NCBI GenBank assembly: GCA_964550065.1
Contig: CAZJWD010000003.1
Location: 93,403 to 157,402 of the forward strand
Source of the DNA: an uncultured Methanomassiliicoccales archaeon
GTDB taxonomy: Archaea > Thermoplasmatota > Thermoplasmata > Methanomassiliicoccales > Methanomethylophilaceae
Direction: 5' to 3'
DNA length: 64,000 nucleotides
A model generated the notes under the pieces. It ran no database searches. It was not told the DNA's origin and worked only from the letters and a program-made list of their open reading frames with translations. Positions 32,337-46,531 of the stretch are shown here, piece by piece; positions within the stretch are counted from its first letter, which is position 1, and every line of letters begins with the position of its first letter. The translations under genes were made by a program, and so were the position numbers.

Positions 32337-32409
32337 GCAGCTGTGATCTAGCTGGTTAGGATCTGAGCCTTCCAAGCTCATTGCCCGGGTTCGAATCCCG
32401 GCGGCTGCA
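32337..32409 (+). tRNA. tRNA-Gly (anticodon UCC), no encoded CCA
   Basis: Hand fold: acceptor GCAGCTG/CGGCTGC; D arm GATC...GATC; anticodon stem TGAGC/GCTCA with loop CTTCCAA; T arm CCGGG-TTCGAAT-CCCGG; discriminator A. Confidence 0.9.
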
Positions 32410-32496
32410 CTCATCTTCATTTTCAAAGACTAAATCGGACTGCTCCGAACAGCGTCAGCTCTGGTCGGTTTCGTCGAGCTCCCTGGAAATCAATTA

Positions 32497-32557
32497 CTCC
32501 CGCATTCTACCAGATTCTACCGAATGCTACCATGGTAGAACCAGAACACGGATTTCA
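32497..32557 (+). repeat. Direct repeat copy 1 (TTCTACC iterons plus CTACCATGGTAG palindrome)
   Basis: CTCCCGCATTCTACCAGATTCTACCGAATGCTACCATGGTAGAACCAGAAC...ATTTCA. Overlaps the stop codon of the 32555..33868 gene. Confidence 0.7.
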
Positions 32558-33868
32558 CCGATTCTGCAACCTATAACGGGTCTGCTTACCGTTGCCCACA
32601 CGCTCGAGAAGACCTTCATCGACCATTGATGAAAGCAACGACCCCGCCTTGGATCTTGATTCCCCGAGAATCCGTTCGGCATCGGATCTAGACAAAGAAC
32701 CATTGGATCTTGCATAATCCATTATCGCGTCAACGTCGGACTGACCGTTAACCGACGGACTGATTGCAGGAAGCTCCACCTTGAACACGTTGGTGCTCAA
32801 TTGTATGGAGGGCTTTACCAGTGCGTCCTTATAATCGCCCATCATACGTGGTATCCCGGTACCGTACGACTCTATGAATCCCAGCCTGTAAAACAAAGAA
32901 GCCATCATCGGATTCCTGGGAGAGGACATCCCCTGGATGATGTCATCTACACCGAGACCTTTGGTGAGGCCGCCGTATGACGCTACTGATATCCCGTCTC
33001 CGAAGACGGATACCAATGTGTCGGCGTTCACGGAGTAGTCACGATGAACAACTGCGTTGGTCAAAGCCTCTCTCAGAGCATAGTCCGGGTATGCCCTCCA
33101 ATCCGTACGTCTGATGCCGGATATGTTTGAACGCAATGGATTGTATCTGTTCAGAAACTCCATGGCATCGCGAACTTGAGTGAGAATGGAGCCCCTTACT
33201 TCCGCACGGTCCAAAAAACCGGTTTTATTCCTGTCGGAATAGGCGGCCAGCTTCATACCGACGGTGCATTGATCCGATACAAGATATGCCAGATTGGTGT
33301 ATGATCCGCCGGAGATCAGGCCGAGGGAGATCATCTGATTCTTTCCAAACTCCACACCGGCTTCGGCGAACACATGCTCTGCCGTGCTGAAGGTGAGGTC
33401 TTGATTGAACGAGATCAATGATTCGAATGATACGGAATTCTCCCTTACCATCTTGAGGATCTGCGCTTCCGTAGCCTGAACTGACGAAGGGCCCATGCGT
33501 ACGTAGACGCCTTCGGGGCGAAGACCTTTCTCACGCAGATAGTACGGCTTTGAGGTACCTTCACAAACCTCGACTTTTACCAAATCCTTACCGTCTATGG
33601 TGACATGGTCTACATCCGTGATCATCCTAGTATCTGGGCGGATGGTGTCTGATATCAGCTGTATCAATCTCAATGATGTAGAGTCGACATCGTTGACGCC
33701 GAATGGTGTACCGTCATCATCCATGCCGATGTATAGCGTACCACCAACCGTATTGGAAAAAGCCACCACGGTTTTCATACACTCATTGGTGAGCTGCCTT
33801 TTGAATTCGGTTCTGATGTCCTCCTCCATATCGTTGAGATGTCTTGGATGTATTAAAAATTCTCCCAC
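32555..33868 (-). CDS. AlbA_2 (Schlafen-like) / HATPase_c_4 / wHTH putative DNA-binding regulator
   Basis: EFKRQL...VVAFSNTVGGTLYIGMDDDG (AlbA_2), REALTNAVVHRDYS and GFIESYGTGIPRM (HATPase_c_4-like), C-terminal LLERVGNGKQTRYRL wHTH. Start is GTG at 33868 or ATG at 33829. Confidence 0.75.
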   Translation of the reverse strand: MGEFLIHPRHLNDMEEDIRTEFKRQLTNECMKTVVAFSNTVGGTLYIGMDDDGTPFGVNDVDSTSLRLIQLISDTIRPDTRMITDVDHVTIDGKDLVKVEVCEGTSKPYYLREKGLRPEGVYVRMGPSSVQATEAQILKMVRENSVSFESLISFNQDLTFSTAEHVFAEAGVEFGKNQMISLGLISGGSYTNLAYLVSDQCTVGMKLAAYSDRNKTGFLDRAEVRGSILTQVRDAMEFLNRYNPLRSNISGIRRTDWRAYPDYALREALTNAVVHRDYSVNADTLVSVFGDGISVASYGGLTKGLGVDDIIQGMSSPRNPMMASLFYRLGFIESYGTGIPRMMGDYKDALVKPSIQLSTNVFKVELPAISPSVNGQSDVDAIMDYARSNGSLSRSDAERILGESRSKAGSLLSSMVDEGLLERVGNGKQTRYRLQNR

Positions 33869-33924
33869 GTTCTACCAAATTCTACCAAACACTACCATGG
33901 TAGAACCGAACGGGCTGAATTTCA
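33862..33924 (+). repeat. Direct repeat copy 2
   Basis: CTCCCACGTTCTACCAAATTCTACCAAACACTACCATGGTAGAACCGAAC...ATTTCA. About 40 of the first 46 positions match copy 1 in my hand alignment. Overlaps or abuts the start of the same gene. Confidence 0.7.
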
Positions 33925-34010: not shown

Positions 34011-35449
34011 TCACTTCCTGCGGGTGTCGATGACCAGCAGGGCGGCCATCATGGCTGCTGCGCAGGCTGCCGCGACACAGGCGACGACTGAGTCATCCTT
34101 CTTCTCGACGGGGTCTGCAATGACCGTGGGCGGAACCATGGGGATGTACTCGCCCTCATCGTCATAGATCGGAAGCCTGATCTGCTCCTCCAGAGCGATG
34201 GTGATGTTCAGTCTACCATCATCTACCCTGAAGGGCCCTCCTGTGGAGATGTAGCCGTCGGCCGACGCTTCGAAAGTGTAAGTTCCTGAATACAGAATGA
34301 GGGAGCCACTCCCTGTGAACGTGCGGACGATTCCTTCGTCGGAATACACCGTCACTGTTGCGGTGACAGGGGAGACGGTGAACGTCACTGTGTACTTTTT
34401 CTCGACTGTGTTACTATCGTCTTTTACGATTGTATCTAGAACGTCGTCCACACCCTCGGTACCGCGAATGCCACCTGCAATAGGGTTCATAGTCACACCG
34501 GGATTATCGCTTTTGAGAACAACATCGGATGCTGTACAATCTTCAAGAGTTCCGGTTTGAATAGCATTCTGATGATTTGTATACAAGCCAATAAGTCCTC
34601 CGATCGCAGAAGTTGCGGGATTACTGTCGATACAGTCCTGGCTGGCGTTGCTTACGACTGTCACTGATGCAACACTGCAATTCTTGATAGTATTGTCGTT
34701 GAAAACAGAACCGATGAGTCCTCCGACCTTACGGGTACCTTCGACGTGAAGATTCTGGGCCTGGTAATCGTCGATTGTATTCTTACCCTCACCTCTGAAC
34801 CCCACCAGACCTCCGACGTTATCGCCTTCCTTTTTATCCATTATGTAGGTCCCAACGACTTTACTGCCATCTTCTGTCTCTACAGAACACCCATAGATAT
34901 TTGCGTAACCCTTGCCTGCGAGACCTCCCACTTTGTAATTTCCAGAGATCTCGATGAATCCAGTGACGTAACAGTTCGATACTGTACCTGTGAACGCACT
35001 TCCAAACATCGCCCCGACTTACTCACTGCCGGTGACAATAGCATTGCGAACAGTCAGATCTACATTGGCACCTGCCACCTTGCCGAACAGCCCTGCACAG
35101 ACCAACGCGGGTTCATTGATATAGACGTTGCTAATCGTCTTTTCATTACCTTTGAATGTTCCCTTGAAATGATTCGTCTCAGTTCCTATGGGTATCCAAT
35201 GAACGTTTTTCAAATCGATATCGTTGGACAGTGTGATAATCTTGTCATCGAAATTATTGCCATCGTTCACAAGCGAGACAAGACCCACCAGCTCCTAGGC
35301 AGTTCCGATTGTGAACTCAGTTCCCTCGTTGCTATACCAACATGTGTTACCACGATGCCCGGATCCTCTCCGTCCGCTGGAACGGCGACCGCACAGGCAG
35401 TCATCAGCATGGCGAGAACGATTCCCGCCGAAAACAATGCTTTTCTCAT
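34011..35449 (-). pseudogene. GLUG-motif cell-surface protein (signal peptide and C-terminal TM anchor), disrupted in three places
   Basis: Signal peptide MRKALFSAGIVLAMLMTACAVA, then a frameshift near 35335-35345, an in-frame TAG at 35295-35297 inside ...FTIGTA*ELVGLVSLVNDG..., and an in-frame TAA at 35019-35021 inside ...VTGSE*VGAMFGS... Repeated GGL(A/V/I)G motifs. C-terminal anchor VVACVAAACAAAMMAALLVIDTRRK. Confidence 0.65.
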
Positions 35450-35681: not shown

Positions 35682-36461
35682 TTACATTTCTACACTAACC
35701 ATTTTCGATTTCGGATACTTGTTGCCTATAGGATGGTTTCTCCCGGACATGATGATTGCGGTGACGTATGGCACGGGATGTCCAGTTTGGCTAAGATAGA
35801 CCTTATACGGCGCATACCATATGATGTAATCTACCCTATCATCGTCAAAACATCTGAGCATCATCTCATCTGCATAATATTTGTGAATGCGTCCAGAAAG
35901 ATGTTGTCCGATCTTCGGATTATGTGTCGGCTTCTTGTTCACGATGTACGGTGTTGATTCATCGTAAATAAAGAAAATTAACTTCTTACAGTTCGGATGA
36001 TTGGTCGTGTAAAGATCAATTTTCCCCTTGTGCTTGTCAACAACACGATGCACATTTGATACATATCTGGAATAGTTATGGTCTTCATCGTATGGCAAAT
36101 CTGACGACCCGAGTACCGCCATCATAACATCATCATCCAATCTGAATGATTCCTCCAGTTTTTTGTACATCTGGGACTCTGCGGCCTTAGTCTTGTTAAT
36201 CACCTTGCCAGCATCCTCAAAAGCACGATCATCGACAGACATTACCTCCATCATGATACCCAATTCCTCTGAAAAGAAATCCGGTGGATAATCTGCCTTT
36301 CCAAAATTATGTGTCCATTTACACCAATTCCAATCATCTATGACTAATCCCAAAATTTGTTTTAGCTCGTCGTGTTCTCTCTGATTCCTTGAAATTATCA
36401 AAATGTCTGATTGTCTAAACCTCCCCAATACGCTATCCTCTGAATCGGCCCGCTTCAACAA
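35682..36461 (-). CDS. Hypothetical protein (orphan) in AT-rich insert
   Basis: 259-codon ORF with no recognisable family motif. The start would be TTG at 36461; the first ATG is at 36254 (codon 70). Divergent from the GHKL-nuclease gene. Confidence 0.45.
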   Translation of the reverse strand: MLKRADSEDSVLGRFRQSDILIISRNQREHDELKQILGLVIDDWNWCKWTHNFGKADYPPDFFSEELGIMMEVMSVDDRAFEDAGKVINKTKAAESQMYKKLEESFRLDDDVMMAVLGSSDLPYDEDHNYSRYVSNVHRVVDKHKGKIDLYTTNHPNCKKLIFFIYDESTPYIVNKKPTHNPKIGQHLSGRIHKYYADEMMLRCFDDDRVDYIIWYAPYKVYLSQTGHPVPYVTAIIMSGRNHPIGNKYPKSKMVSVEM

Positions 36462-36552
36462 CTCACCCCCGATAAATAATTGGATTGCTCAAATTATCGA
36501 ACAAAGTAAATTAACATTAATCATTAATAATACAAAAGAAACTCACACATGT

Positions 36553-38607
36553 ATGACAATGGATGTCGATTTTGAAAGTGCGGTTGACAATATGGTAGTC
36601 GCACATTCCAATGCTATTAAAACCGTACTGGAGGCTGTCACCAACTCCATACAATCTTGTCGTTACGACAACAATAGCCATCACATCTATGTCAGGCTAC
36701 TATCACAAACCAGGACGATTGACGGTAAAGAATCTACGATTATCGATGGATTTCAAATAATTGATGATGGAGAAGGATTCACGGATGAAAATTATTCATC
36801 ATTCAAAACAATTGGTTCAAGATTGAAAAAAGTGGAATTCGGCTGTAAAGGTATGGGCAGACTTACCTGGCTGAAAGTGTTTTCAAAAGTTAACATTAAG
36901 AGTACATATGCTGTAAATGAAGAATTATTTCTAAGAGAGTTTACATTCACAATGAAGGATAATGGTGTGAAGGGTGGAGAAACCCCAACCAAATCAGATG
37001 GCAAACCTAACTTGGAAACAATAATTACTATAAGTGGGTGTAAGCCGGATTACAAGAACGATATTCAAGTGACTGTAAAAGCACTTTCTTCAAAAATAGC
37101 CAATCATTGCATTAGCTTCTACTTAGACAAGAAAAATAATGTGCCGACAATCACCATCAGCAATGGCGAAGAAACAGAAAATGTCAATCAAATTTGGGAA
37201 TCTACAATATCTGATGAAGATTGTGGAACAGTATCAATCAAAGGTTATGATTTTGACTTAACTCATGTAAAATTTTACAAAAATTATGGGTTAGACAATG
37301 GGATATCATTATGTGCAGATGGTCTCGAAGTTCAACCTATAAAAAAATTCGATTATGACCTAGAAGATGAGACGCAACACAAATTCCGGTACAGATGTTT
37401 CTTGTCTGGAGAGCTGTTAAATTCAACTGTAAATCAATCGAGAGATGGTTTCAGCATAGGGATGTCCAACAGAACAATGGATAATTATGACAAACCCTCC
37501 ATCGATGAAATCCTAGACAAAGCCATCCCAATATGTGAGGATTATCTTAGAATATATTCCGACTCCCACAAAGACCGCTGTTTAAGCAGATTGAATCAAT
37601 TCATCAACACTGATGTGGGAAAATCATTCACATCTGTTCTAAAATATGATTCTGAAGTAATAACCGCAGTCAAACCCGACATGAAGGATTCAGAAATATA
37701 TAGACTAATGTCCGAACGTATGCAAAAATTAGAATCAGAATTGTTGTTTACGTCCAGTCTTGATAAAAATCCAAAAACTGATACATCTAAAGCGGTTGAA
37801 AGGCGGATGGAGCTCATAACTAGTGTTCAGAAAGATGAGTTAACAAAAATGTTTGTGCATAGGGGGCTTATCCTATCTGCGTTCGATGAACGCCTTGAAG
37901 CTCTCAATAGGATGTATCCTAAAAAGAATAATGAGTATAAGATGGAACTTGAGTCCGTAATACATGATCTCATTCTTCCGAGAGGTACGGATGCTAAAAA
38001 CCAACCTGTTCTTAGCAGTTGTAATTTGTGGATTTTAGACGAACGCCTCAATACATATGCATTTCAAGGTGCTTATTCCGATTTAAAAATCAAATCTATC
38101 TCTGATTCAGATTCTGAAGATCGCCCAGACATCTTCATTTTTGGTGATATTAAAGACAACATGGTTGCGGAAAGTATCAGCATTATTGAATTCAAAAGAC
38201 CTAATAGGAAAGATAAGAAGATAATCGATCAGATAAACCGGTATATTGATGAATTTATTGATCACGGAGTATACAACTACCGCAGAGAAAAGGTAACTAT
38301 TGATCGTAATACGACGACATTTTTCTGTTATGCGGTATGCGATACAAATTCTGATGATTTTAAAAGGGAATTACGTCACTATAATATGAATGAAAAATTT
38401 GGCGGCCGTGGTTATTATTCATGGAACGGTCAAACCCGCACGGCGTATGATGTCATCGACCACCATCAAGTATTTGCAGACGCTAAATGCAGATACAAAG
38501 TCTTTTTCACATTAATCGGATTAGAAGTAAATTCGGACTGTGTAACTGTCACCAAAGGACAAAATGGCGAAAAAACAATAATTAATTTGAATGAAAATGC
38601 TAAATGA
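36553..38607 (+). CDS. GHKL (Bergerat-fold) ATPase fused to a C-terminal PD-(D/E)xK nuclease-like domain
   Basis: N box LEAVTNSIQS, G1 box IIDDGEGF, G2 box GCKGMGRLTW. C-terminus has RPDIFIFGD...ISIIEFKRP (PD, about 19 residues, EFK). ATG at 36553 chosen; the upstream part of the ORF overlaps the divergent gene. Confidence 0.65.
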   Translation: MTMDVDFESAVDNMVVAHSNAIKTVLEAVTNSIQSCRYDNNSHHIYVRLLSQTRTIDGKESTIIDGFQIIDDGEGFTDENYSSFKTIGSRLKKVEFGCKGMGRLTWLKVFSKVNIKSTYAVNEELFLREFTFTMKDNGVKGGETPTKSDGKPNLETIITISGCKPDYKNDIQVTVKALSSKIANHCISFYLDKKNNVPTITISNGEETENVNQIWESTISDEDCGTVSIKGYDFDLTHVKFYKNYGLDNGISLCADGLEVQPIKKFDYDLEDETQHKFRYRCFLSGELLNSTVNQSRDGFSIGMSNRTMDNYDKPSIDEILDKAIPICEDYLRIYSDSHKDRCLSRLNQFINTDVGKSFTSVLKYDSEVITAVKPDMKDSEIYRLMSERMQKLESELLFTSSLDKNPKTDTSKAVERRMELITSVQKDELTKMFVHRGLILSAFDERLEALNRMYPKKNNEYKMELESVIHDLILPRGTDAKNQPVLSSCNLWILDERLNTYAFQGAYSDLKIKSISDSDSEDRPDIFIFGDIKDNMVAESISIIEFKRPNRKDKKIIDQINRYIDEFIDHGVYNYRREKVTIDRNTTTFFCYAVCDTNSDDFKRELRHYNMNEKFGGRGYYSWNGQTRTAYDVIDHHQVFADAKCRYKVFFTLIGLEVNSDCVTVTKGQNGEKTIINLNENAK

Positions 38608-39379: not shown

Positions 39380-41179
39380 TCATCCTTCGAGTACATCATT
39401 GCTTTCTTCCATCGTCGAACCATCTTGTTCAAAACAATCTATATTTAAATTCCAAAACTCCTTCATTTCTTTCCGAATCTCTTCCGATCTTGATTTGATG
39501 AACTCGGAATACGCTTCATCCCTGTACAAATTATAAGTATCTCCAGTGATGAAATGGTCCTCCAGTTTATCTTTAAATTTGTTCTCTCCACCCAGAGATT
39601 CAATAATTCTGTCCGTATATACTTTGACGGGATCATCGCTTATGGCCTCATTCGTTGAGTTTATAAGATAGGTAAGATTGAAAACAGAATCCACATCCTC
39701 GTAGTATGGCTTGTACCTATGTTCTGGGAACAGATGATGAAGATTCGAAACGTTGAGTTCCACAACATCGTCCCGATAAAAATCAGTCGGATTCTTCCGA
39801 TAGAGAATGCATCTGAGCGCCATGGCTATTGCGCCCTTATCGCTCTTCTTAAACTGTTTAAATCTATTATAGTCCCAATGTATGCAGCACTCGAAACCAG
39901 TACTTGGATCGGGTTCTGTATCAGACATTATCCACTCGCATAGGGCAGTGAAATCCTTACCCATCTTTCCTGGAGCTCCATCCGCATATCTTTCATTGAA
40001 TGCTGTGTAAAAGAAGTATTTCACCACCTTCTGATCCGCCTCTGTCTGATCAATCTGAGACATACGGGAGTACCCGGATTTCATTAACGCGGCCGAAATG
40101 ACGGGCAAAACCACGGAGTATGGCAATAATCCCATGGTTGACTTGGTTCTTGCTACTCCGTTAAGGATTTCTGCTGTTTTGACCAAAGCTTGTATCGCTT
40201 CATCCCAATTGGATTTGATGTCAGATGCGCTTAAGGATTTAGCCAGTGCATTCTTTTTGTGATCCACTCCATTTCTTAAAGCTATGGTTTGGAGAATAAC
40301 TTCACGGTTTCTGTATTCATCTTTGTTTTCGTCTTTTACAAACATGGGTCTGAGGGATGGATTTGCCTGAATTGCATAATCTAGCATCATCTTTATATCC
40401 ACATCAGCGTCTTCTGCCAAATACTTGGCAACACATATATCGAATGAATCCAATTTGATTCCTGTATTGTTCAGTGTTTCAAATATTCTGCATATTGCAG
40501 ACACGTCCATACCCTTTGATAGAGTTAAAGTTTGAAACGAGTATTGAGTAAAAGGTTGCAGAAGACTTCTAAACTGAACGTCTAGAAATTCCTTCTGTTC
40601 TTCGGTTTTATTTGCACTTTTTAGGTATTCTCTAAAAAAGTTATTGAATGTAACATCATCTTTGAGTAAATAAAATGGAATCAGATTGCCCTCAATAATG
40701 TTGTCTGGTTCTTTTTTCAGCTTTCTCGTTACTATTATCTTGTCACTATTGTTGTCAACAAGAGAGATGTTCGAAATATCATACTTCTTACCAGACATTC
40801 CCACTTCTAGACACTTACGATAAAGTGCGTCCATGTCTATGAAGAAATATTTTCTTGTTCCATCATTATATATACGCCCCTTGTTGTAAAATGCATTGTA
40901 ACACGAGGTAAGACGCTGTTGACCATCCAACACCAAGGCTTCTGATTCATTCGTGCCATTCGAATTTTTGAATAGTTGTTTCGCCAAGAATCCCTCGTCC
41001 GGCATTATTAGAAGTACGCCTGTTGGATAGTTATGGAATATTGAGTCTAAAAGAAGAATAATATCACTGTCTTTCCACACAAACGCTCTTTGGAAAGTTG
41101 GCAACCTCCATTCTCCATTATCGACTTTTTCTAAAGCCTCTTGAATGTTGTATTGCTCTGACTTGACATTATTCGACAT
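39380..41179 (-). CDS. GmrSD-family (DUF262 + DUF1524) type IV modification-dependent restriction endonuclease
   Basis: WRLPTFQRAFVWKDSDIILLLDSI and LVLDGQQRLTS (DUF262), C-terminal NLHHLFPEHRY...N (His-Me/DUF1524). ATG at 41179 is preceded by TTTAATATTATC about 20 nt upstream. Confidence 0.8.
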   Translation of the reverse strand: MSNNVKSEQYNIQEALEKVDNGEWRLPTFQRAFVWKDSDIILLLDSIFHNYPTGVLLIMPDEGFLAKQLFKNSNGTNESEALVLDGQQRLTSCYNAFYNKGRIYNDGTRKYFFIDMDALYRKCLEVGMSGKKYDISNISLVDNNSDKIIVTRKLKKEPDNIIEGNLIPFYLLKDDVTFNNFFREYLKSANKTEEQKEFLDVQFRSLLQPFTQYSFQTLTLSKGMDVSAICRIFETLNNTGIKLDSFDICVAKYLAEDADVDIKMMLDYAIQANPSLRPMFVKDENKDEYRNREVILQTIALRNGVDHKKNALAKSLSASDIKSNWDEAIQALVKTAEILNGVARTKSTMGLLPYSVVLPVISAALMKSGYSRMSQIDQTEADQKVVKYFFYTAFNERYADGAPGKMGKDFTALCEWIMSDTEPDPSTGFECCIHWDYNRFKQFKKSDKGAIAMALRCILYRKNPTDFYRDDVVELNVSNLHHLFPEHRYKPYYEDVDSVFNLTYLINSTNEAISDDPVKVYTDRIIESLGGENKFKDKLEDHFITGDTYNLYRDEAYSEFIKSRSEEIRKEMKEFWNLNIDCFEQDGSTMEESNDVLEG

Positions 41180-41517
41180 AGTTGATACTCGGTTTGATAA
41201 TATTAAATGATAATGAAGAACAGATTCTCGCATTTGCACCTGACTACCTCGCAATATAATATTCCAAACTAATTCAACCAAGGAATCAATAAGTAACATA
41301 CCCGAATCATCGAATAACACTTGCACGCTCGCCACTCTTGTATCCAGAATTTACGGGTTTTCGTTTTTAAATACACGACTGGGTATAACTGGGCACTCTT
41401 TGTACACATCTACCTAAATCTAATAGAATCTAGAAGCATACCGACGAACCAGATTTGACACTTACCTGACAAAAGAAGATTCAATATTGGTCGATGCAGT
41501 CCACCGGTTCTGTCAAA

Positions 41518-42735
41518 TCATCGTTGTGAATAAATTTCGTAAACCCTTTTCCCCATCCTCTCGACCAAGGGGACCACTAGCGCGTTTCCCATGGTGAAGT
41601 ATCTCTGACGCTCCGACATGCCTGTGTCGGTCCAATTGTCCGGGAACCCGTTGAGCCTCTCACACTCCACCGGCGTCAGGATTCTGAGCCTCCTGGTCTG
41701 AGGGTCCTCGATGAGATGACTGGAACGGTTCGTCGTGCCCTCGCTGGTCAGCATGGTGCGACCAGGGCGATCGAGTATGTCCGGGAAAGGTATGGCCCCC
41801 TCTGAATAGTAGTAAGTGGATCCATCCCTCCTCTCACGGAGCTCCCTCTTGGACCCCTTCATGTACTCCCATCTGGCGATGTCGATCGAGTAGTACCTCT
41901 CACCCACGTCATCCTGAAGCACGTCCCTGAGGTTTACCGTCCTGTCAGGGGTCACAGGTTCGACGTCCTCCGTGAAGACCATGTAGTCGACCATCACACC
42001 GGCATGATGGAAGTCCTGCTCGAACCGGTCGGACACATCGATGAGCGTCGGGTACTCTGACGGGGCGACGGAGAACTCCCCCTCCTTCCTGCGATTAAAG
42101 ACGGGATTGACGGGGAACGGTCCGGAGAAGAATCCGGAACGTTCGACGATGTCCCTCAAATCATGCACCCTGTATGTGTCCGCGAACTTCTCCGTGGCCT
42201 TGCATGCGAATATGAACGTCCTGCGACGCCTCTGGGGCAGACCGTAGTCCGCCGCATTGATCACGCGCCACTCGACATAGTACCCCTCGTCGGCCAGGCA
42301 GCGCAGGATTATGCCGAAGTCGCGTCCCCTCTGGCTCGCAGGGGACCTCACCAACCGGTCCACGTTCTCCAGGAGGATGAACCTTGGGGACCTGAGCTTG
42401 ATGATGTCATAGATGTTCCACCAGAGGACACCCTTCTTCCCCTCGATCCCCTTGGCCTGCGTCGCCGCCACGGAATAATCCTGACAGGGGAACCCGCCCA
42501 CCAGGAGATCGTGTTCAGGCACCTCCCTCCAGACCTCGGATATGTCCCGGTTTACGTTCACCGACCCTGTCTGGCCGAAGTGGGAGTCGTAGCATCTGAA
42601 GGCGAACTGGTCCTTCCTCCCCGGCTCCCATTGGTCGGCCCACACGGTGACGAAACGGTCCGATGCCCTCTCCAGCCCTATGCGGAATCCCCCAACTCCC
42701 GCAAACAGTTCCACGACTCTTATCTCGTCACTCAT
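41518..42735 (-). CDS. dcm: DNA (cytosine-5)-methyltransferase
   Basis: Motif I VVELFAGVGGF, IV GGFPCQDYS, VI LLENV, VIII QRRRR, X GNALVVPLV. Internal ATG at 42735. Confidence 0.9.
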   Translation of the reverse strand: MSDEIRVVELFAGVGGFRIGLERASDRFVTVWADQWEPGRKDQFAFRCYDSHFGQTGSVNVNRDISEVWREVPEHDLLVGGFPCQDYSVAATQAKGIEGKKGVLWWNIYDIIKLRSPRFILLENVDRLVRSPASQRGRDFGIILRCLADEGYYVEWRVINAADYGLPQRRRRTFIFACKATEKFADTYRVHDLRDIVERSGFFSGPFPVNPVFNRRKEGEFSVAPSEYPTLIDVSDRFEQDFHHAGVMVDYMVFTEDVEPVTPDRTVNLRDVLQDDVGERYYSIDIARWEYMKGSKRELRERRDGSTYYYSEGAIPFPDILDRPGRTMLTSEGTTNRSSHLIEDPQTRRLRILTPVECERLNGFPDNWTDTGMSERQRYFTMGNALVVPLVERMGKRVYEIYSQR

Positions 42736-42892
42736 CGACGGATGGGAGACCGTCCATCTAGATAAACCTGAGTTGGACAGTTGTGCCGATTCCAAAGGAC
42801 GACTTCAGGATTGACCGCATATACACAGATTAAGACGACCTCACAAAACGCATTTCTACTGTTTCGGATACTTATTCGGGGTAACCGATGGT

Positions 42893-42922
42893 GCTTTCCG
42901 GGGTCGCAGACCCCCGGAAAGC
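42893..42922. promoter_or_regulatory. Perfect 11-bp inverted repeat (hairpin/operator candidate) in the dcm / endonuclease divergent spacer
   Basis: GCTTTCCGGGG-(8 nt)-CCCCGGAAAGC. Confidence 0.45.
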
Positions 42923-43170
42923 CGTATAAAATACTGACTGTCCAATGACATCCAGATACCATATTTTTTCGAATGTCTGGCTATGCCCGTTGGACAGCAG
43001 GAATTCTTCATAAAAAAAATTCCATCCGGGTCTTAGATGTATAGTTCCTATTCGACAATCGATATCGGAGTGAAGTGTAATCAGAATAATGCCTCAAACT
43101 GGAAACTCAGCTGTCCAGTTCGAGATGAACATGGCGATCGAATTATCTTAGAGCACATGGATTGCCACCC

Positions 43171-44628
43171 ATGAAGGTCAGAAGAAGGGGTCCCGGCGAG
43201 ACGGCAGAGAAAGGATCGCTGCCGTACGACGAGCATGACCTGGAATCGATACTGCGCTACGCCGGCAGACTCACGGGCAGGACCCTCGGGGATTTCGTGG
43301 AGACCGAGGATCTGATCATCGGGGACGTCCGCTCGAAAGGTAAGTTCGGACAGATCGTGGAGAGCGAATTCTTCATGATACCCAACAACAACTTCGGGGA
43401 ACCTGACTTCCGCGAGGTCGGCCTGGAACTCAAGGTCGCACCGATGAAAGGGGGAAAGGATAGCCTGGTGTCCAAGGAGAGACTGGTCCTGGGCATCATC
43501 GACTACGACGAGATCCCGTCCAGGGGTTTCGACATGTTCCTACACAAGGGCTCGCACATCCTGATCGTGTTCTACCAGTGGAGTGAGGAGACGGACATAC
43601 TGTCATATCCCATCCTGAAGGTCGTCGATTGGAGGCCGACGGAGGAGGAACTCCGTCTGATCCGTGAGGATTGGGATGTCATCGAAGGTTATGTCCTCCG
43701 TGGGGAGGCGGAAAAACTCTCCGAGAGACATACAAAATATCTCGCGGCCAACACCAAAGGCACGGGACATGACTCCGACCTCCGCTCGCAACCGTTCTCG
43801 GATGTGCCCGCCAAACAAAGGTCGTTATCGTTCAAAGCACCGTTCATGACAGCCCTGTTCCACTCCCACCACGATGTCAACGAACTGTTCGTCGATGCGC
43901 CCCGTGACACAGACATCGAGTACATGCCGGATTCGGTCATCGACGGCACATGGACCGAAGGACAGACTTTCGAGGACTATGTGGAATCGAAACTGGAGAG
44001 GTTCGTCGGGAGGACCTGCATCGAGATAGAGAGGATGCTCGGGGTGGAAATCAATGAATCCAAACAGTACTACCACACCCTGACCCTCGCGATGTTCGGC
44101 GTACAGGGGAAGAAACGCATAAAGGAATTCGACCAGGCGAGAATACTGATCAAGACTGTCAGGATAAAGAAAAATGGGAGACCGAAAGAAAGCATGTCCT
44201 TCCCGACCTTCAGATACGGGGACATCGTCAATCAGACATGGGAGACCAGCGATTTCCACGATCAAATCGACCGTGAGTTCTTCATGCCCGTGTTCCAGTT
44301 CAATACAGACAACCCCCGTGACGAAGGACGCAAGGACCTCACCTTCATAGGAGCGTTCTTCTGGTATGTGCCGGATGGGGACTTCGATGTCATCCGGGAT
44401 GTCTGGGAGGAGACACGTGACCAGATAGACAGGATGGACTTCGACCATTTCATCGGATCGTCCCAGGGTCGCATAGCCCATGTCAGGCCTCATGGCAGGA
44501 ACAAGGACGACACGTATCCGTTCAGAGGCGGACGCTACACGAAACGGAGCTTCTGGTTCAACGATAACTACATACGGACCGTGGTCAGGGACGGACTGGA
44601 CAGGCTTAGGTCAGGAAAGAAGGGCTGA
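43171..44628 (+). CDS. Sau3AI/MutH-family type II restriction endonuclease
   Basis: LTGRTLGDF...SKGKFGQIVESEFF...EPDFREVGLELKVAP (D-x6-E-x-K, as in MutH). About 485 aa, like the two-domain Sau3AI. ATG at 43171 (TTG at 43162 also possible). Confidence 0.7.
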   Translation: MKVRRRGPGETAEKGSLPYDEHDLESILRYAGRLTGRTLGDFVETEDLIIGDVRSKGKFGQIVESEFFMIPNNNFGEPDFREVGLELKVAPMKGGKDSLVSKERLVLGIIDYDEIPSRGFDMFLHKGSHILIVFYQWSEETDILSYPILKVVDWRPTEEELRLIREDWDVIEGYVLRGEAEKLSERHTKYLAANTKGTGHDSDLRSQPFSDVPAKQRSLSFKAPFMTALFHSHHDVNELFVDAPRDTDIEYMPDSVIDGTWTEGQTFEDYVESKLERFVGRTCIEIERMLGVEINESKQYYHTLTLAMFGVQGKKRIKEFDQARILIKTVRIKKNGRPKESMSFPTFRYGDIVNQTWETSDFHDQIDREFFMPVFQFNTDNPRDEGRKDLTFIGAFFWYVPDGDFDVIRDVWEETRDQIDRMDFDHFIGSSQGRIAHVRPHGRNKDDTYPFRGGRYTKRSFWFNDNYIRTVVRDGLDRLRSGKKG

Positions 44629-45027
44629 CAGCATCGCCGCCACGGCCTCGGGATCCCTCCTGATCTCACATTCCCACACGACCACCACCGTCCATCCGAG
44701 TCCCTCGAGCTCCGATATATTCCTACGGTCACGCTCGACGTTCCTCTCGAACTTCCCCTGCCAGAACTCACGGTTATGCTCCGGCAGGGGGAGATCACAT
44801 GAAGGGCACCTGTGCCAGAAGCAGCCATTGACGAATATCGCCACCTTCCTGCCGGGATAGCATATGTCGGGCCTCCCGGGTACCTTCCACTGCAGTCTGT
44901 AACCTGGGAACCCCGCGTCGCGAAGTGCCTTCCTGACCATCAACTCGGGTTTGGTGTCCCTACGTTTGTTGGCCTTCATGGACCGGACTGTGTTCTCGTT
45001 CAACGGCTCACATGCGGACATGGTCAA
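44611..45027 (-). CDS. vsr: Very-short-patch repair endonuclease
   Basis: RRDTKPELMVRKALRDAGFPGYRLQWKVPGRPDICYPGRKVAIFVNGCFWHRCP. Confidence 0.9.
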   Translation of the reverse strand: MTMSACEPLNENTVRSMKANKRRDTKPELMVRKALRDAGFPGYRLQWKVPGRPDICYPGRKVAIFVNGCFWHRCPSCDLPLPEHNREFWQGKFERNVERDRRNISELEGLGWTVVVVWECEIRRDPEAVAAMLSALLS

Positions 45028-45034
45028 CCACCCG

Positions 45035-46531
45035 TCATCCTATGAACCCGACGGAATCGAGCATCTCGATCATCTTGGACCCCTTCACCCAGACATATTG
45101 CCGGTACATACGGACACCACAAAGTTCGACTGGTTTCCTTGTGGAATCGCTACCGCTGCCCCTGATGAACACATCATGGTCTACTGACTTCGGAAAGTTC
45201 GGGGAGGTCGTCGGAACCCCGGTCCTGTTGACCCTGGGGGCTCCGGTCCTGGAGATCACTGCCTCGTCCCGGAGGCCTCCGCTCCACACGAGTTGCCTAA
45301 CCTCGTTCCACGTGCGTCTGACGTCGTCGTACACGAATCCCTCAGGGAACATGAACCGTTTGAAACCTATGAAGACGTTGTCACGGAACCTCTTGTTACG
45401 GTCCGCCTCTTGGAACACGATGCAGATGAACCTACGACCCATGAAATACTGGAACACCGCCGAATCCTCGAAGGCCCTGTCAGGGTCTAAGAACTCGGTG
45501 AAATCCACAGGCATCATCTTTGTGTCTTCGGTGTGACCGCCCTTCGATGTCATGCACACTGTCTTGACGGCCAGGTCCATGACTCTGAACAGACCTATCT
45601 CAGACATCTTCCTGGCCTCACCTCCGAACATCCTGACGACTATGGACTCCCCTATCGACTTCGACATCCTGTCACGGTCCGGAACATCCAGTCCGAACTC
45701 GTCGATGAGCTGGTCCACAGTGTATCCAGAATACCTCCTGGTGATCTCCGTGCACCTACGGTCCATCTCGTCGAACTCCAACACTCCGTCCATCGTCATC
45801 TGGGATTCGTTCAACACCCTTCCATCGAAATACGCCTTGACAATCTCCGAGACCACGCTACGCCTCAGTCTGAACCTCGGGTTGTTCGGCCATTTCGGTG
45901 CCGTCTCGATCATCATCAGACGGTCCCTCAGCTCACTGGACAACCTTGGATACCCATCCTCCGGATGTTCATAGTCCCGTTTGATTGTGCGGATGAAATC
46001 CCTGATAAGCGTCCAATCCTTCTTGAGCATCCCCACGACATATTGGTCGAACCTATGCAGCTGATACCCGCACACGGGGAATCTGGCATACCCCGGTGCC
46101 GGAACGGTCTCCTGGGAGTTGTAATGGTAATACACCAGGAGCATCTGCTCAACCTTATGCCAGAAATTCGACGATTCAAACTCTTCCTCAACGATGGAAT
46201 CCACAGAGACCGCGGTGATGGTCATCGGTTCCTTGGCATCGTAACCTTTACCTGACGACCAGGACAGTCCCGTGACCTTGACCTCGGTCGGAACACCATC
46301 GACGACTATGTCCGGACTCTGACCAGGATTAGGCCGATATCCCAGGACCGATTGTTCGATGACATCCCCTGCTATCCCTGTGACCTTGACCTTGCCCGCA
46401 TTCCGCTCGAAAACCCCTGCCGTATCGATGTCGCCGAGCTTCCGACCAAGAATCCCATCCATCAACGATATGAGTTCGTCTGATGTGAACTCGAAACCCG
46501 ATGCGGAATGCTGCGAATCCACAGGCACCAT
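45035..46531 (-). CDS. Second Sau3AI/MutH-like endonuclease paralogue
   Basis: ILGRKLGDID...KVTGIAGDVIEQSVLGY...SPDIVVDGVPTEVKVTG...KEPMTITAV. 498 aa. Lies 7 nt upstream of vsr on the same strand. Confidence 0.6.
   Translation of the reverse strand: MVPVDSQHSASGFEFTSDELISLMDGILGRKLGDIDTAGVFERNAGKVKVTGIAGDVIEQSVLGYRPNPGQSPDIVVDGVPTEVKVTGLSWSSGKGYDAKEPMTITAVSVDSIVEEEFESSNFWHKVEQMLLVYYHYNSQETVPAPGYARFPVCGYQLHRFDQYVVGMLKKDWTLIRDFIRTIKRDYEHPEDGYPRLSSELRDRLMMIETAPKWPNNPRFRLRRSVVSEIVKAYFDGRVLNESQMTMDGVLEFDEMDRRCTEITRRYSGYTVDQLIDEFGLDVPDRDRMSKSIGESIVVRMFGGEARKMSEIGLFRVMDLAVKTVCMTSKGGHTEDTKMMPVDFTEFLDPDRAFEDSAVFQYFMGRRFICIVFQEADRNKRFRDNVFIGFKRFMFPEGFVYDDVRRTWNEVRQLVWSGGLRDEAVISRTGAPRVNRTGVPTTSPNFPKSVDHDVFIRGSGSDSTRKPVELCGVRMYRQYVWVKGSKMIEMLDSVGFIG

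What the first reader, a model, noticed from the sequence alone, without database searches (positions are those of the whole stretch)
35682..38607. Orphan gene plus GHKL-ATPase/PD-(D/E)xK-nuclease fusion in an AT-rich insert: candidate uncharacterised defence module
Gene B (36553..38607) carries the three Bergerat-fold boxes in the correct order (LEAVTNSIQS, IIDDGEGF, GCKGMGRLTW). About 400 residues follow that have no motif I can place. The gene ends with RPDIFIFGD...ISIIEFKRP, a PD...ExK restriction-endonuclease-fold signature. That layout suggests an ATP-driven sensor or clamp coupled to a nuclease in one polypeptide.

Gene A (35682..36461) is transcribed divergently from a short AT-rich spacer. 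It has no ATG before codon 70 and no family motif I recognise.

The pair has no attached methyltransferase, helicase or integrase. It sits inside the most AT-rich part of an otherwise GC-rich window, between a decayed adhesin and a GmrSD enzyme. That is defence-island context with a foreign-looking composition.

I cannot match this architecture to a named system from memory. Shedu-type DUF4263 nucleases and MORC/paraMORC ATPases are the nearest concepts.
Basis: partly seen in the sequence, partly recalled or inferred. Interest (0 to 1): 0.8.

Follow-up and report, generated by a model that had tools for sequence, protein, structure and literature searches.

The report
Archaeal VcSduA-type GHKL-nuclease defence gene
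Gene B is an intact archaeal copy of an already described single-gene anti-phage enzyme (an ATPase fused to a DNA-cutting domain, known as paraMORC3 or VcSduA-type Shedu), and the neighbouring gene A is not its partner but a stray member of a separate unnamed family that normally sits inside type I restriction operons.

Summary
Gene B (36553..38607, +, 684 aa) carries all the Bergerat ATPase boxes and a C-terminal D…ExK nuclease motif, and these residues are invariant in 73 homologues. Both genes lie in a low-GC island that starts at a tRNA-Gly gene and is full of restriction genes.

The "uncharacterised two-gene module" reading does not hold.
- **Gene B is known.** It aligns collinearly with Vibrio cholerae VcSduA (BLASTP E 2e-40). 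Its nuclease half aligns with another VcSduA-model hit (E 2e-19).
- **The family is described.** It was described as paraMORC3 in 2008, classed as GHKL-type Shedu (type 1D) in 2023, and shown to protect against T1-like phages in 2025. In that study E27A and K557A abolished protection; B has E27 and K548.
- **The family is widespread.** It occurs in more than 578 species and on 48 plasmids, as a stand-alone gene often lodged in type I R-M operons.
- **Gene A is not a partner.** It appears next to none of 80 B-homologue loci, nor next to the closest relatives (79-82% identity).
- **Gene A has its own family.** It comprises about 490 clusters. In 61 of 67 loci it sits within 8 kb of hsd genes, usually wedged directly between them.

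Verdict: new member of a known kind, low interest. The gene A family is a modest side lead.

The parts
36553..38607 (+). Gene B, 684 aa: VcSduA/paraMORC3-type GHKL ATPase fused to a PD-(D/E)xK nuclease. Intact, with all catalytic residues present.
   Evidence: ORF and translation. 140 full-length homologues. BLASTP against V. cholerae VcSduA gives E 2e-40, 26% identity over 397 aa, collinear. The full-length model has mean pLDDT 84.9.
36553..37047 (+). GHKL (Bergerat) ATPase domain, about aa 1-165. Motif I is E27/N31, motif II is D71xGxG75, motif III is G97xKGxGR103, and motif IV is probably T156.
   Evidence: The residues are invariant or nearly so. 37 of 73 family members hit HATPase_c_3 and 29 of 73 hit HATPase_c. 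B itself scores only E 0.042. Foldseek top hits are SMCHD1, Hsp90/TRAP1, GyrB, Topo VI-B, MORC3 and MLH1, at E 1e-11 to 1e-8.
37060..37452 (+). Transducer (middle, S5-like) domain, about aa 170-300, with invariant R297. R297 is inferred to be the gamma-phosphate sensor, by analogy with Hsp90 R380 and GyrB K337.
   Evidence: The model shows a mixed beta/alpha block at aa 175-292. Foldseek alignments of 385-490 columns to ATPase-plus-transducer structures span it. R297 is conserved in 73 of 73. The sensor role is inference.
37480..37917 (+). Long helical linker or arm, about aa 310-455.
   Evidence: Helices at 317-351, 356-365, 379-399 and 411-454 in the model. It carries no catalytic motif. L430 and R437 are invariant.
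37930..38517 (+). RecB-like PD-(D/E)xK nuclease domain, about aa 460-655. Key residues are E467, H471, NLWILDERL (491-499), D526, E546xK548 and Q560xxxY564.
   Evidence: Conservation. The domain model has pLDDT 88.5 and an alpha-beta-beta-beta-alpha-beta order, with D just before strand 2 and ExK in strand 3. Weak Foldseek top hits are McrC, Can2 and HamA, all PD-(D/E)xK nucleases, best E 0.055. There is a weak HSDR_N hit. BLASTP against the nuclease half of a VcSduA-model hit gives E 2e-19.
36459..36552 (.). 94-bp AT-rich divergent spacer between the starts of A and B.
   Evidence: Sequence. No promoter analysis was attempted, because the host appears to be archaeal.
35682..36458 (-). Gene A, 258 aa with a TTG start. 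It belongs to an unannotated family linked to type I R-M operons and is not a partner of B.
   Evidence: Homologues. Invariant P59-D60 and H143. The only database match is a sub-threshold DpnII-MboI hit, 23.4 bits against a cut-off of 27. Genomic contexts.
32337..32410 (+). tRNA-Gly(TCC) at the left edge of the low-GC island.
   Evidence: ARAGORN and Rfam. GC drops immediately downstream. No repeat of the tRNA 3' end was found.
39380..41335 (-). GmrSD-type (DUF262) type IV restriction gene, an independent neighbour.
   Evidence: GmrSD_N at E 6e-28 and PADLOC HEC-05 models.
41518..46531 (.). Sau3AI-type R-M block: a C5 methyltransferase (41518..42795, -), a Sau3AI-family endonuclease (43162..44628, +), a Vsr (about 44611..45021, -) and a second MutH/Sau3AI-like gene (45035..46531, -).
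   Evidence: Pfam, PADLOC and NCBIfam hits. Gene calls on the identical contig.
32555..33868 (-). Schlafen AlbA_2 / HATPase_c_4 / winged-helix protein, another defence-type neighbour.
   Evidence: Pfam hits. It is flanked by a 51-nt direct repeat.

Best explanation
Gene B is a stand-alone, single-protein anti-virus nuclease of the VcSduA/paraMORC3 family, also classed as GHKL-type Shedu (type 1D).

Proposed mechanism, by homology:
- The protein dimerises through its N-terminal GHKL ATPase domains.
- ATP is bound and hydrolysed using E27 as general base, N31 for Mg2+, the D71xGxG75 and G97-G102 lid, and R297 from the transducer domain.
- This cycle drives a clamp-like movement of the middle domain and the helical arms.
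- That movement licenses the C-terminal RecB-like PD-(D/E)xK nuclease (E467, D526, E546, K548, QxxxY) to cut invading DNA directly, without killing the host.

What is shown here: homology to VcSduA, intactness of all catalytic residues, the domain order, and the stand-alone, mobile, defence-island distribution of the family.

What is shown for VcSduA in the literature: protection against T1-like phages, the need for E27 and K557, and a non-abortive phenotype.

What is inferred: dimerisation, the role of R297, the coupling of ATPase to nuclease, and activity in this archaeon. The trigger is unknown.

Gene A is an unrelated passenger gene. It lies next to B in this genome but in no other locus examined. 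Its family normally sits inside type I R-M operons.
For: Homology to VcSduA:
- BLASTP of B against V. cholerae A1552 VcSduA, using the sequence from Supplementary Table 5 of bioRxiv 10.1101/2024.11.23.624991, gives E 2e-40 and 26% identity over 397 collinear residues.
- B's C-terminal half against a Burkholderia VcSduA-model hit gives E 2e-19, with NLWxxDERL, PD and EFKRP aligned.
- The mutated residue E27 has the same number in B. VcSduA K557 corresponds by position to B's invariant K548; the C-terminal half of VcSduA was not available to align.

Structure and motifs:
- All GHKL and nuclease residues are invariant in 73 homologues.
- The model matches GHKL-plus-transducer structures at E 1e-11.
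- The nuclease-domain model has canonical topology.

Distribution:
- More than 578 species carry a relative, as do 48 plasmids, 27 of them conjugative.
- 30 of 81 loci have hsd genes within 10 kb.
- A V. fluvialis plasmid carries hsdR-AAA-hsdM-hsdS-Shedu followed by the B homologue.

No conserved partner:
- Gene A was not found in any of the 80 B-homologue loci from other genomes.
- It is absent beside the relatives at 79-82% identity.

Literature.
Against: - Pfam DUF4263, the Shedu signature, hits neither B, nor any of 73 homologues, nor three VcSduA-table sequences.
- No Shedu chain appears in the top 50 Foldseek hits for the nuclease domain, and no hit reaches E 0.001.
- A family profile finds no PDB sequence.
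- Identity to VcSduA is only 26%, and its C-terminal half was not available for direct alignment.
- Nothing is known about activity in an archaeal host or against archaeal viruses.
- PADLOC v2.0.0 has no model that hits B.
Confidence: 0.85

Rival explanations
1. A and B form a two-gene defence module specific to this lineage. A would be a sensor or second nuclease that works with the ATPase-nuclease B from a shared divergent promoter.
For: The two genes are divergent, separated by only 94 bp, and share the same low-GC composition. A has faint restriction-enzyme-like matches.
Against: No A homologue lies in any of 80 B-homologue loci. None of 86 A-family loci holds a B homologue. The closest B relatives, at 60-82% identity, lack A. 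The closest A relative, at 58% identity, lacks B. VcSduA works alone.
Confidence: 0.04
2. B is an accessory ATPase of a neighbouring restriction system. This is the general paraMORC role proposed by Iyer et al. 2008. It would remodel or load the GmrSD or Sau3AI-type enzymes encoded 1-6 kb downstream, rather than act alone.
For: Iyer et al. 2008 proposed that paraMORC families act within R-M systems. B homologues often lie in type I R-M operons. The island holds GmrSD and a Sau3AI-type system.
Against: The same paper notes that paraMORC3 proteins with the nuclease domain occur as stand-alone genes. 51 of 81 loci have no hsd gene nearby. VcSduA protects E. coli when expressed alone. B has its own intact nuclease. 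The neighbours here are on the opposite strand.
Confidence: 0.07
3. B is a silent leftover of a past transfer event and has no current function in this archaeon.
For: The composition is foreign. The island contains a short GLUG-motif ORF that may be a decayed gene. No expression data exist.
Against: The ORF is full length with every invariant residue intact. The identical protein is present on 4 contigs from separate sequencing runs.
Confidence: 0.04

Closest known systems
VcSduA of Vibrio cholerae WASA-lineage VSP-II (A1552VC_00276; PMC12137116)
   Same: - The length class and domain order match: GHKL, middle domain, helical region, PD-(D/E)xK nuclease.
- Direct homology over the N-terminal 400 residues (E 2e-40).
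- The same family motifs occur in the nuclease half.
- The catalytic E27 and the ExK lysine are conserved.
- It is a stand-alone gene sitting next to DUF262/GmrSD-type genes in a genomic island. In V. cholerae these are GrwAB; here it is a GmrSD homologue.
   Different: - Identity is only about 26%.
- The host here appears to be archaeal.
- B has a 25-residue C-terminal tail of low model confidence.
- No functional data exist for B.
paraMORC3 family (Iyer, Abhiman & Aravind 2008, PMC2292703)
   Same: It is defined as GHKL plus S5 domain plus a C-terminal RE-fold domain with E-D-ExK motifs related to RecB nucleases. It is sporadic in bacteria and archaea and often stand-alone. B fits every point.
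   Different: No paraMORC3 reference sequence was available for a direct test here. The link goes through the statement in PMC12137116 that VcSduA-like proteins were annotated as paraMORC3.
Canonical Shedu SduA (DUF4263; Bacillus cereus and E. coli structures)
   Same: It is a single-protein defence nuclease with a PD-(D/E)xK core and a variable N-terminal regulatory region. The GHKL-bearing forms are filed as type 1D.
   Different: The Pfam DUF4263 model does not detect B or its family. Foldseek does not place Shedu among the top matches. VcSduA is modelled as a dimer rather than a tetramer. NCBI annotates the B homologue as 'ATP-binding protein' right beside a gene it does call Shedu.
MutL, MORC, SMCHD1, Hsp90 and Topo VI-B GHKL clamps
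   Same: The N-terminal 300 residues share the ATPase-plus-transducer fold. MutL and type II topoisomerases also couple a GHKL ATPase to a nuclease.
   Different: The C-terminal nuclease type differs, and there is no mismatch-repair or topoisomerase context. Similarity is at the fold level only, at 9-14% identity.

Membership tests
VcSduA / paraMORC3 (GHKL-type Shedu, type 1D) | N-terminal GHKL ATPase with intact Bergerat motifs I-IV | tested here: met
   E27, N31, D71xGxG75, G97xKGxG102 and T156 are conserved. HATPase_c_3 or HATPase_c hits occur in family members. Foldseek reaches E 1e-11.
VcSduA / paraMORC3 (GHKL-type Shedu, type 1D) | GHKL-associated middle (S5 or transducer, 'N24') domain | tested here: met
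   Model. Foldseek alignments of 385-490 columns to ATPase-plus-transducer structures.
VcSduA / paraMORC3 (GHKL-type Shedu, type 1D) | C-terminal RE-fold nuclease with E-D-ExK motifs | tested here: met
   E467, D526, E546 and K548 are invariant, and Q560xxxY564 is present. The model has canonical topology. Structural matches are only weak: McrC, Can2 and HamA.
VcSduA / paraMORC3 (GHKL-type Shedu, type 1D) | Direct sequence homology to the validated protein VcSduA | tested here: met
   BLASTP E 2e-40 over VcSduA residues 3-391 of the RefSeq call. The nuclease half against another hit of the authors' VcSduA model gives E 2e-19. The C-terminal half of VcSduA itself was not available.
VcSduA / paraMORC3 (GHKL-type Shedu, type 1D) | Acts alone, with no conserved partner gene | tested here: met
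   Apart from type I R-M genes, present in 30 of 81 loci, no recurrent neighbour was found. Gene A is absent from all of them.
VcSduA / paraMORC3 (GHKL-type Shedu, type 1D) | Anti-phage protection that depends on both the ATPase and the nuclease | not testable with these tools
   Shown only for VcSduA (E27A, K557A).
Shedu in the strict sense (DUF4263 / PF14082) | Match to the DUF4263 profile | tested here: not met
   There was no hit at E<=10 for B. None at E<=0.01 for 73 homologues. None at E<=10 for three VcSduA-table sequences.
Shedu in the strict sense (DUF4263 / PF14082) | Nuclease domain structurally closest to solved SduA | tested here: inconclusive
DpnII/MboI restriction endonucleases (PF18742), for gene A | Score at or above Pfam's gathering threshold | tested here: not met
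   The score is 23.4 bits against a cut-off of 27, over a single stretch of about 30 residues. Only 10 of 24 and 7 of 104 family members give even weak hits.
   0 of 80 B loci hold A. 0 of 86 A loci hold B. The closest relatives of each lack the other.

The most novel reading that the evidence does not exclude
The more novel object is gene A rather than gene B.
- It belongs to a family of about 260-aa proteins (about 490 clusters) with no Pfam, NCBIfam, PADLOC or PHROG model.
- The family is almost always wedged, with gaps of -10 to +32 nt, between hsdS or hsdM and hsdR or hsdS of type I R-M operons.
- It could be an undescribed fourth component or embedded effector of type I systems, for example a nuclease-like factor with an invariant PD dipeptide.
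- In this archaeon it has been separated from any hsd genes.

A weaker variant is that here it has been recruited to work with the VcSduA-type enzyme encoded divergently beside it.
Probability: 0.4. Interest if true: 0.5.

Novelty: new member of a known kind. Interest (0 to 1): 0.25.

Why it matters
- **For gene B, little changes.** It adds an intact archaeal member to a defence family whose architecture was described in 2008 and whose anti-phage activity was shown in 2025.
- **There is an annotation gap.** Pfam DUF4263, NCBIfam and PADLOC v2.0.0 all miss the whole VcSduA family. Members are therefore labelled "ATP-binding protein" or "hypothetical" even when they sit beside a gene annotated as Shedu. 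A dedicated profile would recover hundreds of loci.
- **The family is highly mobile.** Its frequent lodging in type I R-M operons and on conjugative plasmids supports this view.
- **The side observation on gene A may matter more.** If the family is undescribed, it is a tractable lead on what travels inside type I restriction operons.

Tried and rejected
- **PDB sequence searches** with B, A and their family profiles returned only noise.
- **Foldseek of the nuclease-domain model against BFVD** was uninformative.
- **PADLOC, NCBIfam and PHROGs** gave no hit for B. For A there was only one weak PADLOC REase_II hit.
- **The published Supplementary Table 7** of PMC12137116 is truncated in the held copy. 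The preprint's Table 5 supplied the sequences instead.
- **Island boundary.** I looked for a repeat of the tRNA-Gly 3' end as an att site and found none. No integrase was seen.
- **hsd remnants.** I looked for decayed hsd genes in the window, which would explain A and B as leftovers of a type I operon, and found none.
- **GATC avoidance.** GATC counts show no clear avoidance. I therefore dropped the idea that A is an active MboI-like enzyme constrained by the Sau3AI-type methylase. It remains untested.
- **Naming the host.** Exact look-up of housekeeping proteins returned no source names. The host is called archaeal only from RpoL, IF-2B-family and TruD hits on the flanks and from Thermoplasmata and Methanomassiliicoccaceae being B's closest named relatives.
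- **A structure for gene A** could not be predicted, because both prediction jobs went to B.
Full report
**1. The observation**

Both ORFs exist at the stated coordinates.
- Gene B's translation contains the quoted strings in the stated order: LEAVTNSIQS, IIDDGEGF, GCKGMGRLTW, then RPDIFIFGD and ISIIEFKRP near the C-terminus.
- The supported start is the ATG at 36553, giving 684 aa. An identical database protein has this length, and homologues align from residue 1.
- Gene A has no Met before codon 70. It begins with two TTG codons, and the called 258-aa product starts at 36458.
- Gene A's homologues are 253-266 aa and align end to end, so it is not truncated.
- The two starts are 94 bp apart and divergent.
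- GC falls to 0.36-0.41 between 36 and 41 kb, against 0.56-0.64 in the flanks.
- The low-GC island starts directly after a tRNA-Gly(TCC) gene at 32337-32410.

**2. Surroundings**

The identical region occurs on contigs from separate sequencing runs. It is flanked by RpoL-, IF-2B- and TruD-type genes, so the host is probably an archaeon. The island genes, in order, are:
- a Schlafen AlbA_2/HATPase_c_4 protein;
- a GLUG-motif ORF;
- gene A (-) and gene B (+);
- a GmrSD_N protein (-);
- a C5 methyltransferase (-);
- a Sau3AI-family endonuclease (+);
- Vsr (-);
- a second MutH/Sau3AI-like gene (-).

**3. Gene B: anatomy**

Library models barely see B. There was no Pfam hit at E<=0.01, only HATPase_c_3 at E 0.042 and HSDR_N at E 0.21. 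PADLOC, NCBIfam and PHROG gave nothing.

A homologue search returned 140 full-length proteins of about 640-720 aa. In an alignment of 73 of them:
- The GHKL residues N31, D71, G73, G75, G97, G100 and G102 are invariant, and E27 is conserved in 71 of 73.
- R297 in the middle of the protein is invariant.
- The nuclease residues E467, H471, D526, E546 and K548 are invariant, followed by Q560xxxY564.
- Half of the members do hit HATPase_c_3 or HATPase_c.

A full-length AlphaFold model (mean pLDDT 84.9) shows four parts: an N-terminal alpha/beta ATPase, a second mixed domain, a 140-residue helical region, and a C-terminal alpha/beta domain. Foldseek matches the first roughly 400 residues to SMCHD1, Hsp90/TRAP1, GyrB, Topo VI-B, MORC3 and MLH1, at E 1e-11 to 1e-8. 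These are GHKL ATPases with their transducer domains.

The C-terminal 240 residues were modelled alone (pLDDT 88.5). They have the alpha-beta-beta-beta-alpha-beta order of the restriction-endonuclease fold, with D526 ahead of strand 2 and E546xK548 in strand 3. Foldseek gives only weak matches, none at E<=0.001. The leading ones are McrC, Can2 and HamA, all PD-(D/E)xK nucleases.

**4. Gene B: identity**

The literature already describes this architecture.
- Iyer, Abhiman and Aravind (2008) defined paraMORC3 as GHKL plus S5 plus a C-terminal RE-fold domain with E-D-ExK motifs related to RecB nucleases. They found it sporadic in bacteria and archaea and often stand-alone.
- Gu et al. (2023 preprint) list Shedu homologues with a GHKL fold and an Hsp90/MORC-like middle domain under type 1D.
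- Adams et al. (2025) showed that V. cholerae VcSduA protects E. coli against T1-like phages. E27A and K557A abolish protection, the phenotype is not abortive, and the protein is modelled as an entwined dimer. They found 543 homologues.

The preprint's Supplementary Table 5 holds sequences of those hits, including the first 399 residues shown for VcSduA.
- BLASTP of B against VcSduA gives E 2e-40 and 26% identity over 397 collinear residues.
- B's C-terminal half against a Burkholderia hit of the same model gives E 2e-19. NLWILDERL aligns with NLWVVDERL, RPD with EPD, and EFKRP with EFKRP.

One caveat concerns the label, not the homology. Pfam DUF4263 detects neither B, nor its 73 relatives, nor three sequences from the authors' table. 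No Shedu structure is among the top Foldseek hits. The "Shedu" assignment of this family therefore rests on remote-homology methods that I could not rerun.

**5. Gene B: distribution**

- A scan of one genome per species found at least 578 species with a relative, across many bacterial phyla. Thermoplasmata and Methanomassiliicoccaceae archaea are the closest named ones.
- 30 of 81 loci have at least one hsd gene within 10 kb, and 14 have all three, mostly upstream on the same strand.
- 48 plasmids carry a homologue, 27 of them conjugative, annotated "ATP-binding protein" or "hypothetical protein".
- One Vibrio fluvialis plasmid reads hsdR-AAA-hsdM-hsdS-"Shedu immune nuclease family protein" followed by the B homologue.
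- The relatives at 79-82% identity lie in resolvase-bearing elements full of small ORFs.

The gene is mobile and stands alone.

**6. Gene A**

- tblastn and a family HMM find A in none of the 80 B-homologue loci from other genomes; the only matches are the two contigs identical to the window.
- A is not an orphan. There were 24 hits in the word-indexed search and 490 clusters with a profile search.
- Of 67 metagenome and contig loci of at least 6 kb, 61 carry hsd genes and none carries a B homologue.
- The usual order is hsdM-hsdS-A-hsdR or hsdR-hsdM-A-hsdS on one strand. Gaps to the next hsd ORF run from -10 to +32 nt.
- Across 104 diverse members, only P59-D60 and H143 are invariant.
- The DpnII-MboI match is below threshold, short, and seen in a minority of members. 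No other library model fits.
- The window holds no hsd remnants.

A is thus an independent passenger whose function is unknown. Its pairing with B is particular to this genome.

**7. Mechanism and rivals**

The best explanation (confidence 0.85) is that B acts alone as an ATP-gated nuclease in the manner of VcSduA. The homology, the intact catalytic residues and the domain order are shown here. Dimerisation, the sensor role of R297, ATPase-to-nuclease coupling and activity in this host are inferred. The trigger is unknown.

The rivals are:
- an A+B module (0.04), contradicted by the lack of co-occurrence;
- an R-M accessory role (0.07), contradicted by stand-alone distribution and by VcSduA working alone;
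- a silent relic (0.04), contradicted by full conservation.

**8. Verdict**

Gene B is a new, probably archaeal member of a known and experimentally validated kind, so interest is low. Two by-products are worth keeping. Current profile libraries miss the VcSduA family entirely. The gene A family is an unannotated, near-obligate resident of type I R-M operons.

Noticed in passing
window 35682-36458 (-); loci L083-L168: Gene A's family (about 260 aa, about 490 clusters, no library model) is almost always embedded in type I R-M operons. 61 of 67 loci carry hsd genes, typically in the order hsdM-hsdS-A-hsdR with gaps of -10 to +32 nt. P59-D60 and H143 are invariant.
   Followed up: partly
window 32492-32542 and 33857-33907: A 51-nt direct repeat (84% identical) flanks the Schlafen AlbA_2/HATPase_c_4/wHTH gene. 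It contains TTCTACC repeats and the palindrome CTACCATGGTAG. It may be an operator set or the ends of an insertion.
   Followed up: no
window 32337-32410: tRNA-Gly(TCC) marks the left edge of the low-GC island. No repeat of its 3' end and no integrase were found.
   Followed up: partly
window 41518-46531: This Sau3AI-type R-M block has two MutH/Sau3AI-like endonuclease genes, one C5 methyltransferase and a Vsr. Why there are two endonuclease paralogues is unexplained.
   Followed up: no
L169 (6446-14401), L170, L171: The closest B homologues (79-82% identity) sit in resolvase-bearing elements. Beside them is a conserved convergent cluster: 130 aa, an AAA_23/SMC_N-like protein of 658 aa, 49 aa, a DEAD/ResIII helicase of 715 aa, and two proteins without Pfam hits (about 690-700 and about 410 aa). 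This may be another defence system.
   Followed up: no
L172 (Vibrio fluvialis plasmid NZ_AP028130.1, 333349-347355): This IncC plasmid carries hsdR, an AAA ATPase, hsdM, hsdS, a gene annotated 'Shedu immune nuclease family protein', and then the B homologue annotated only 'ATP-binding protein'. NCBI's Shedu model therefore does not cover the VcSduA family.
   Followed up: no
window 35019-35288 (-): This 89-aa ORF between the GLUG ORF and gene A matches PHROG 30905, of unknown function, at E 9e-6.
   Followed up: no
window 39380-41335 (-): The GmrSD homologue matches only the N-terminal DUF262 Pfam model and several PADLOC HEC-05/HEC-06 candidate models. No C-terminal DUF1524 hit was returned.
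   Followed up: no
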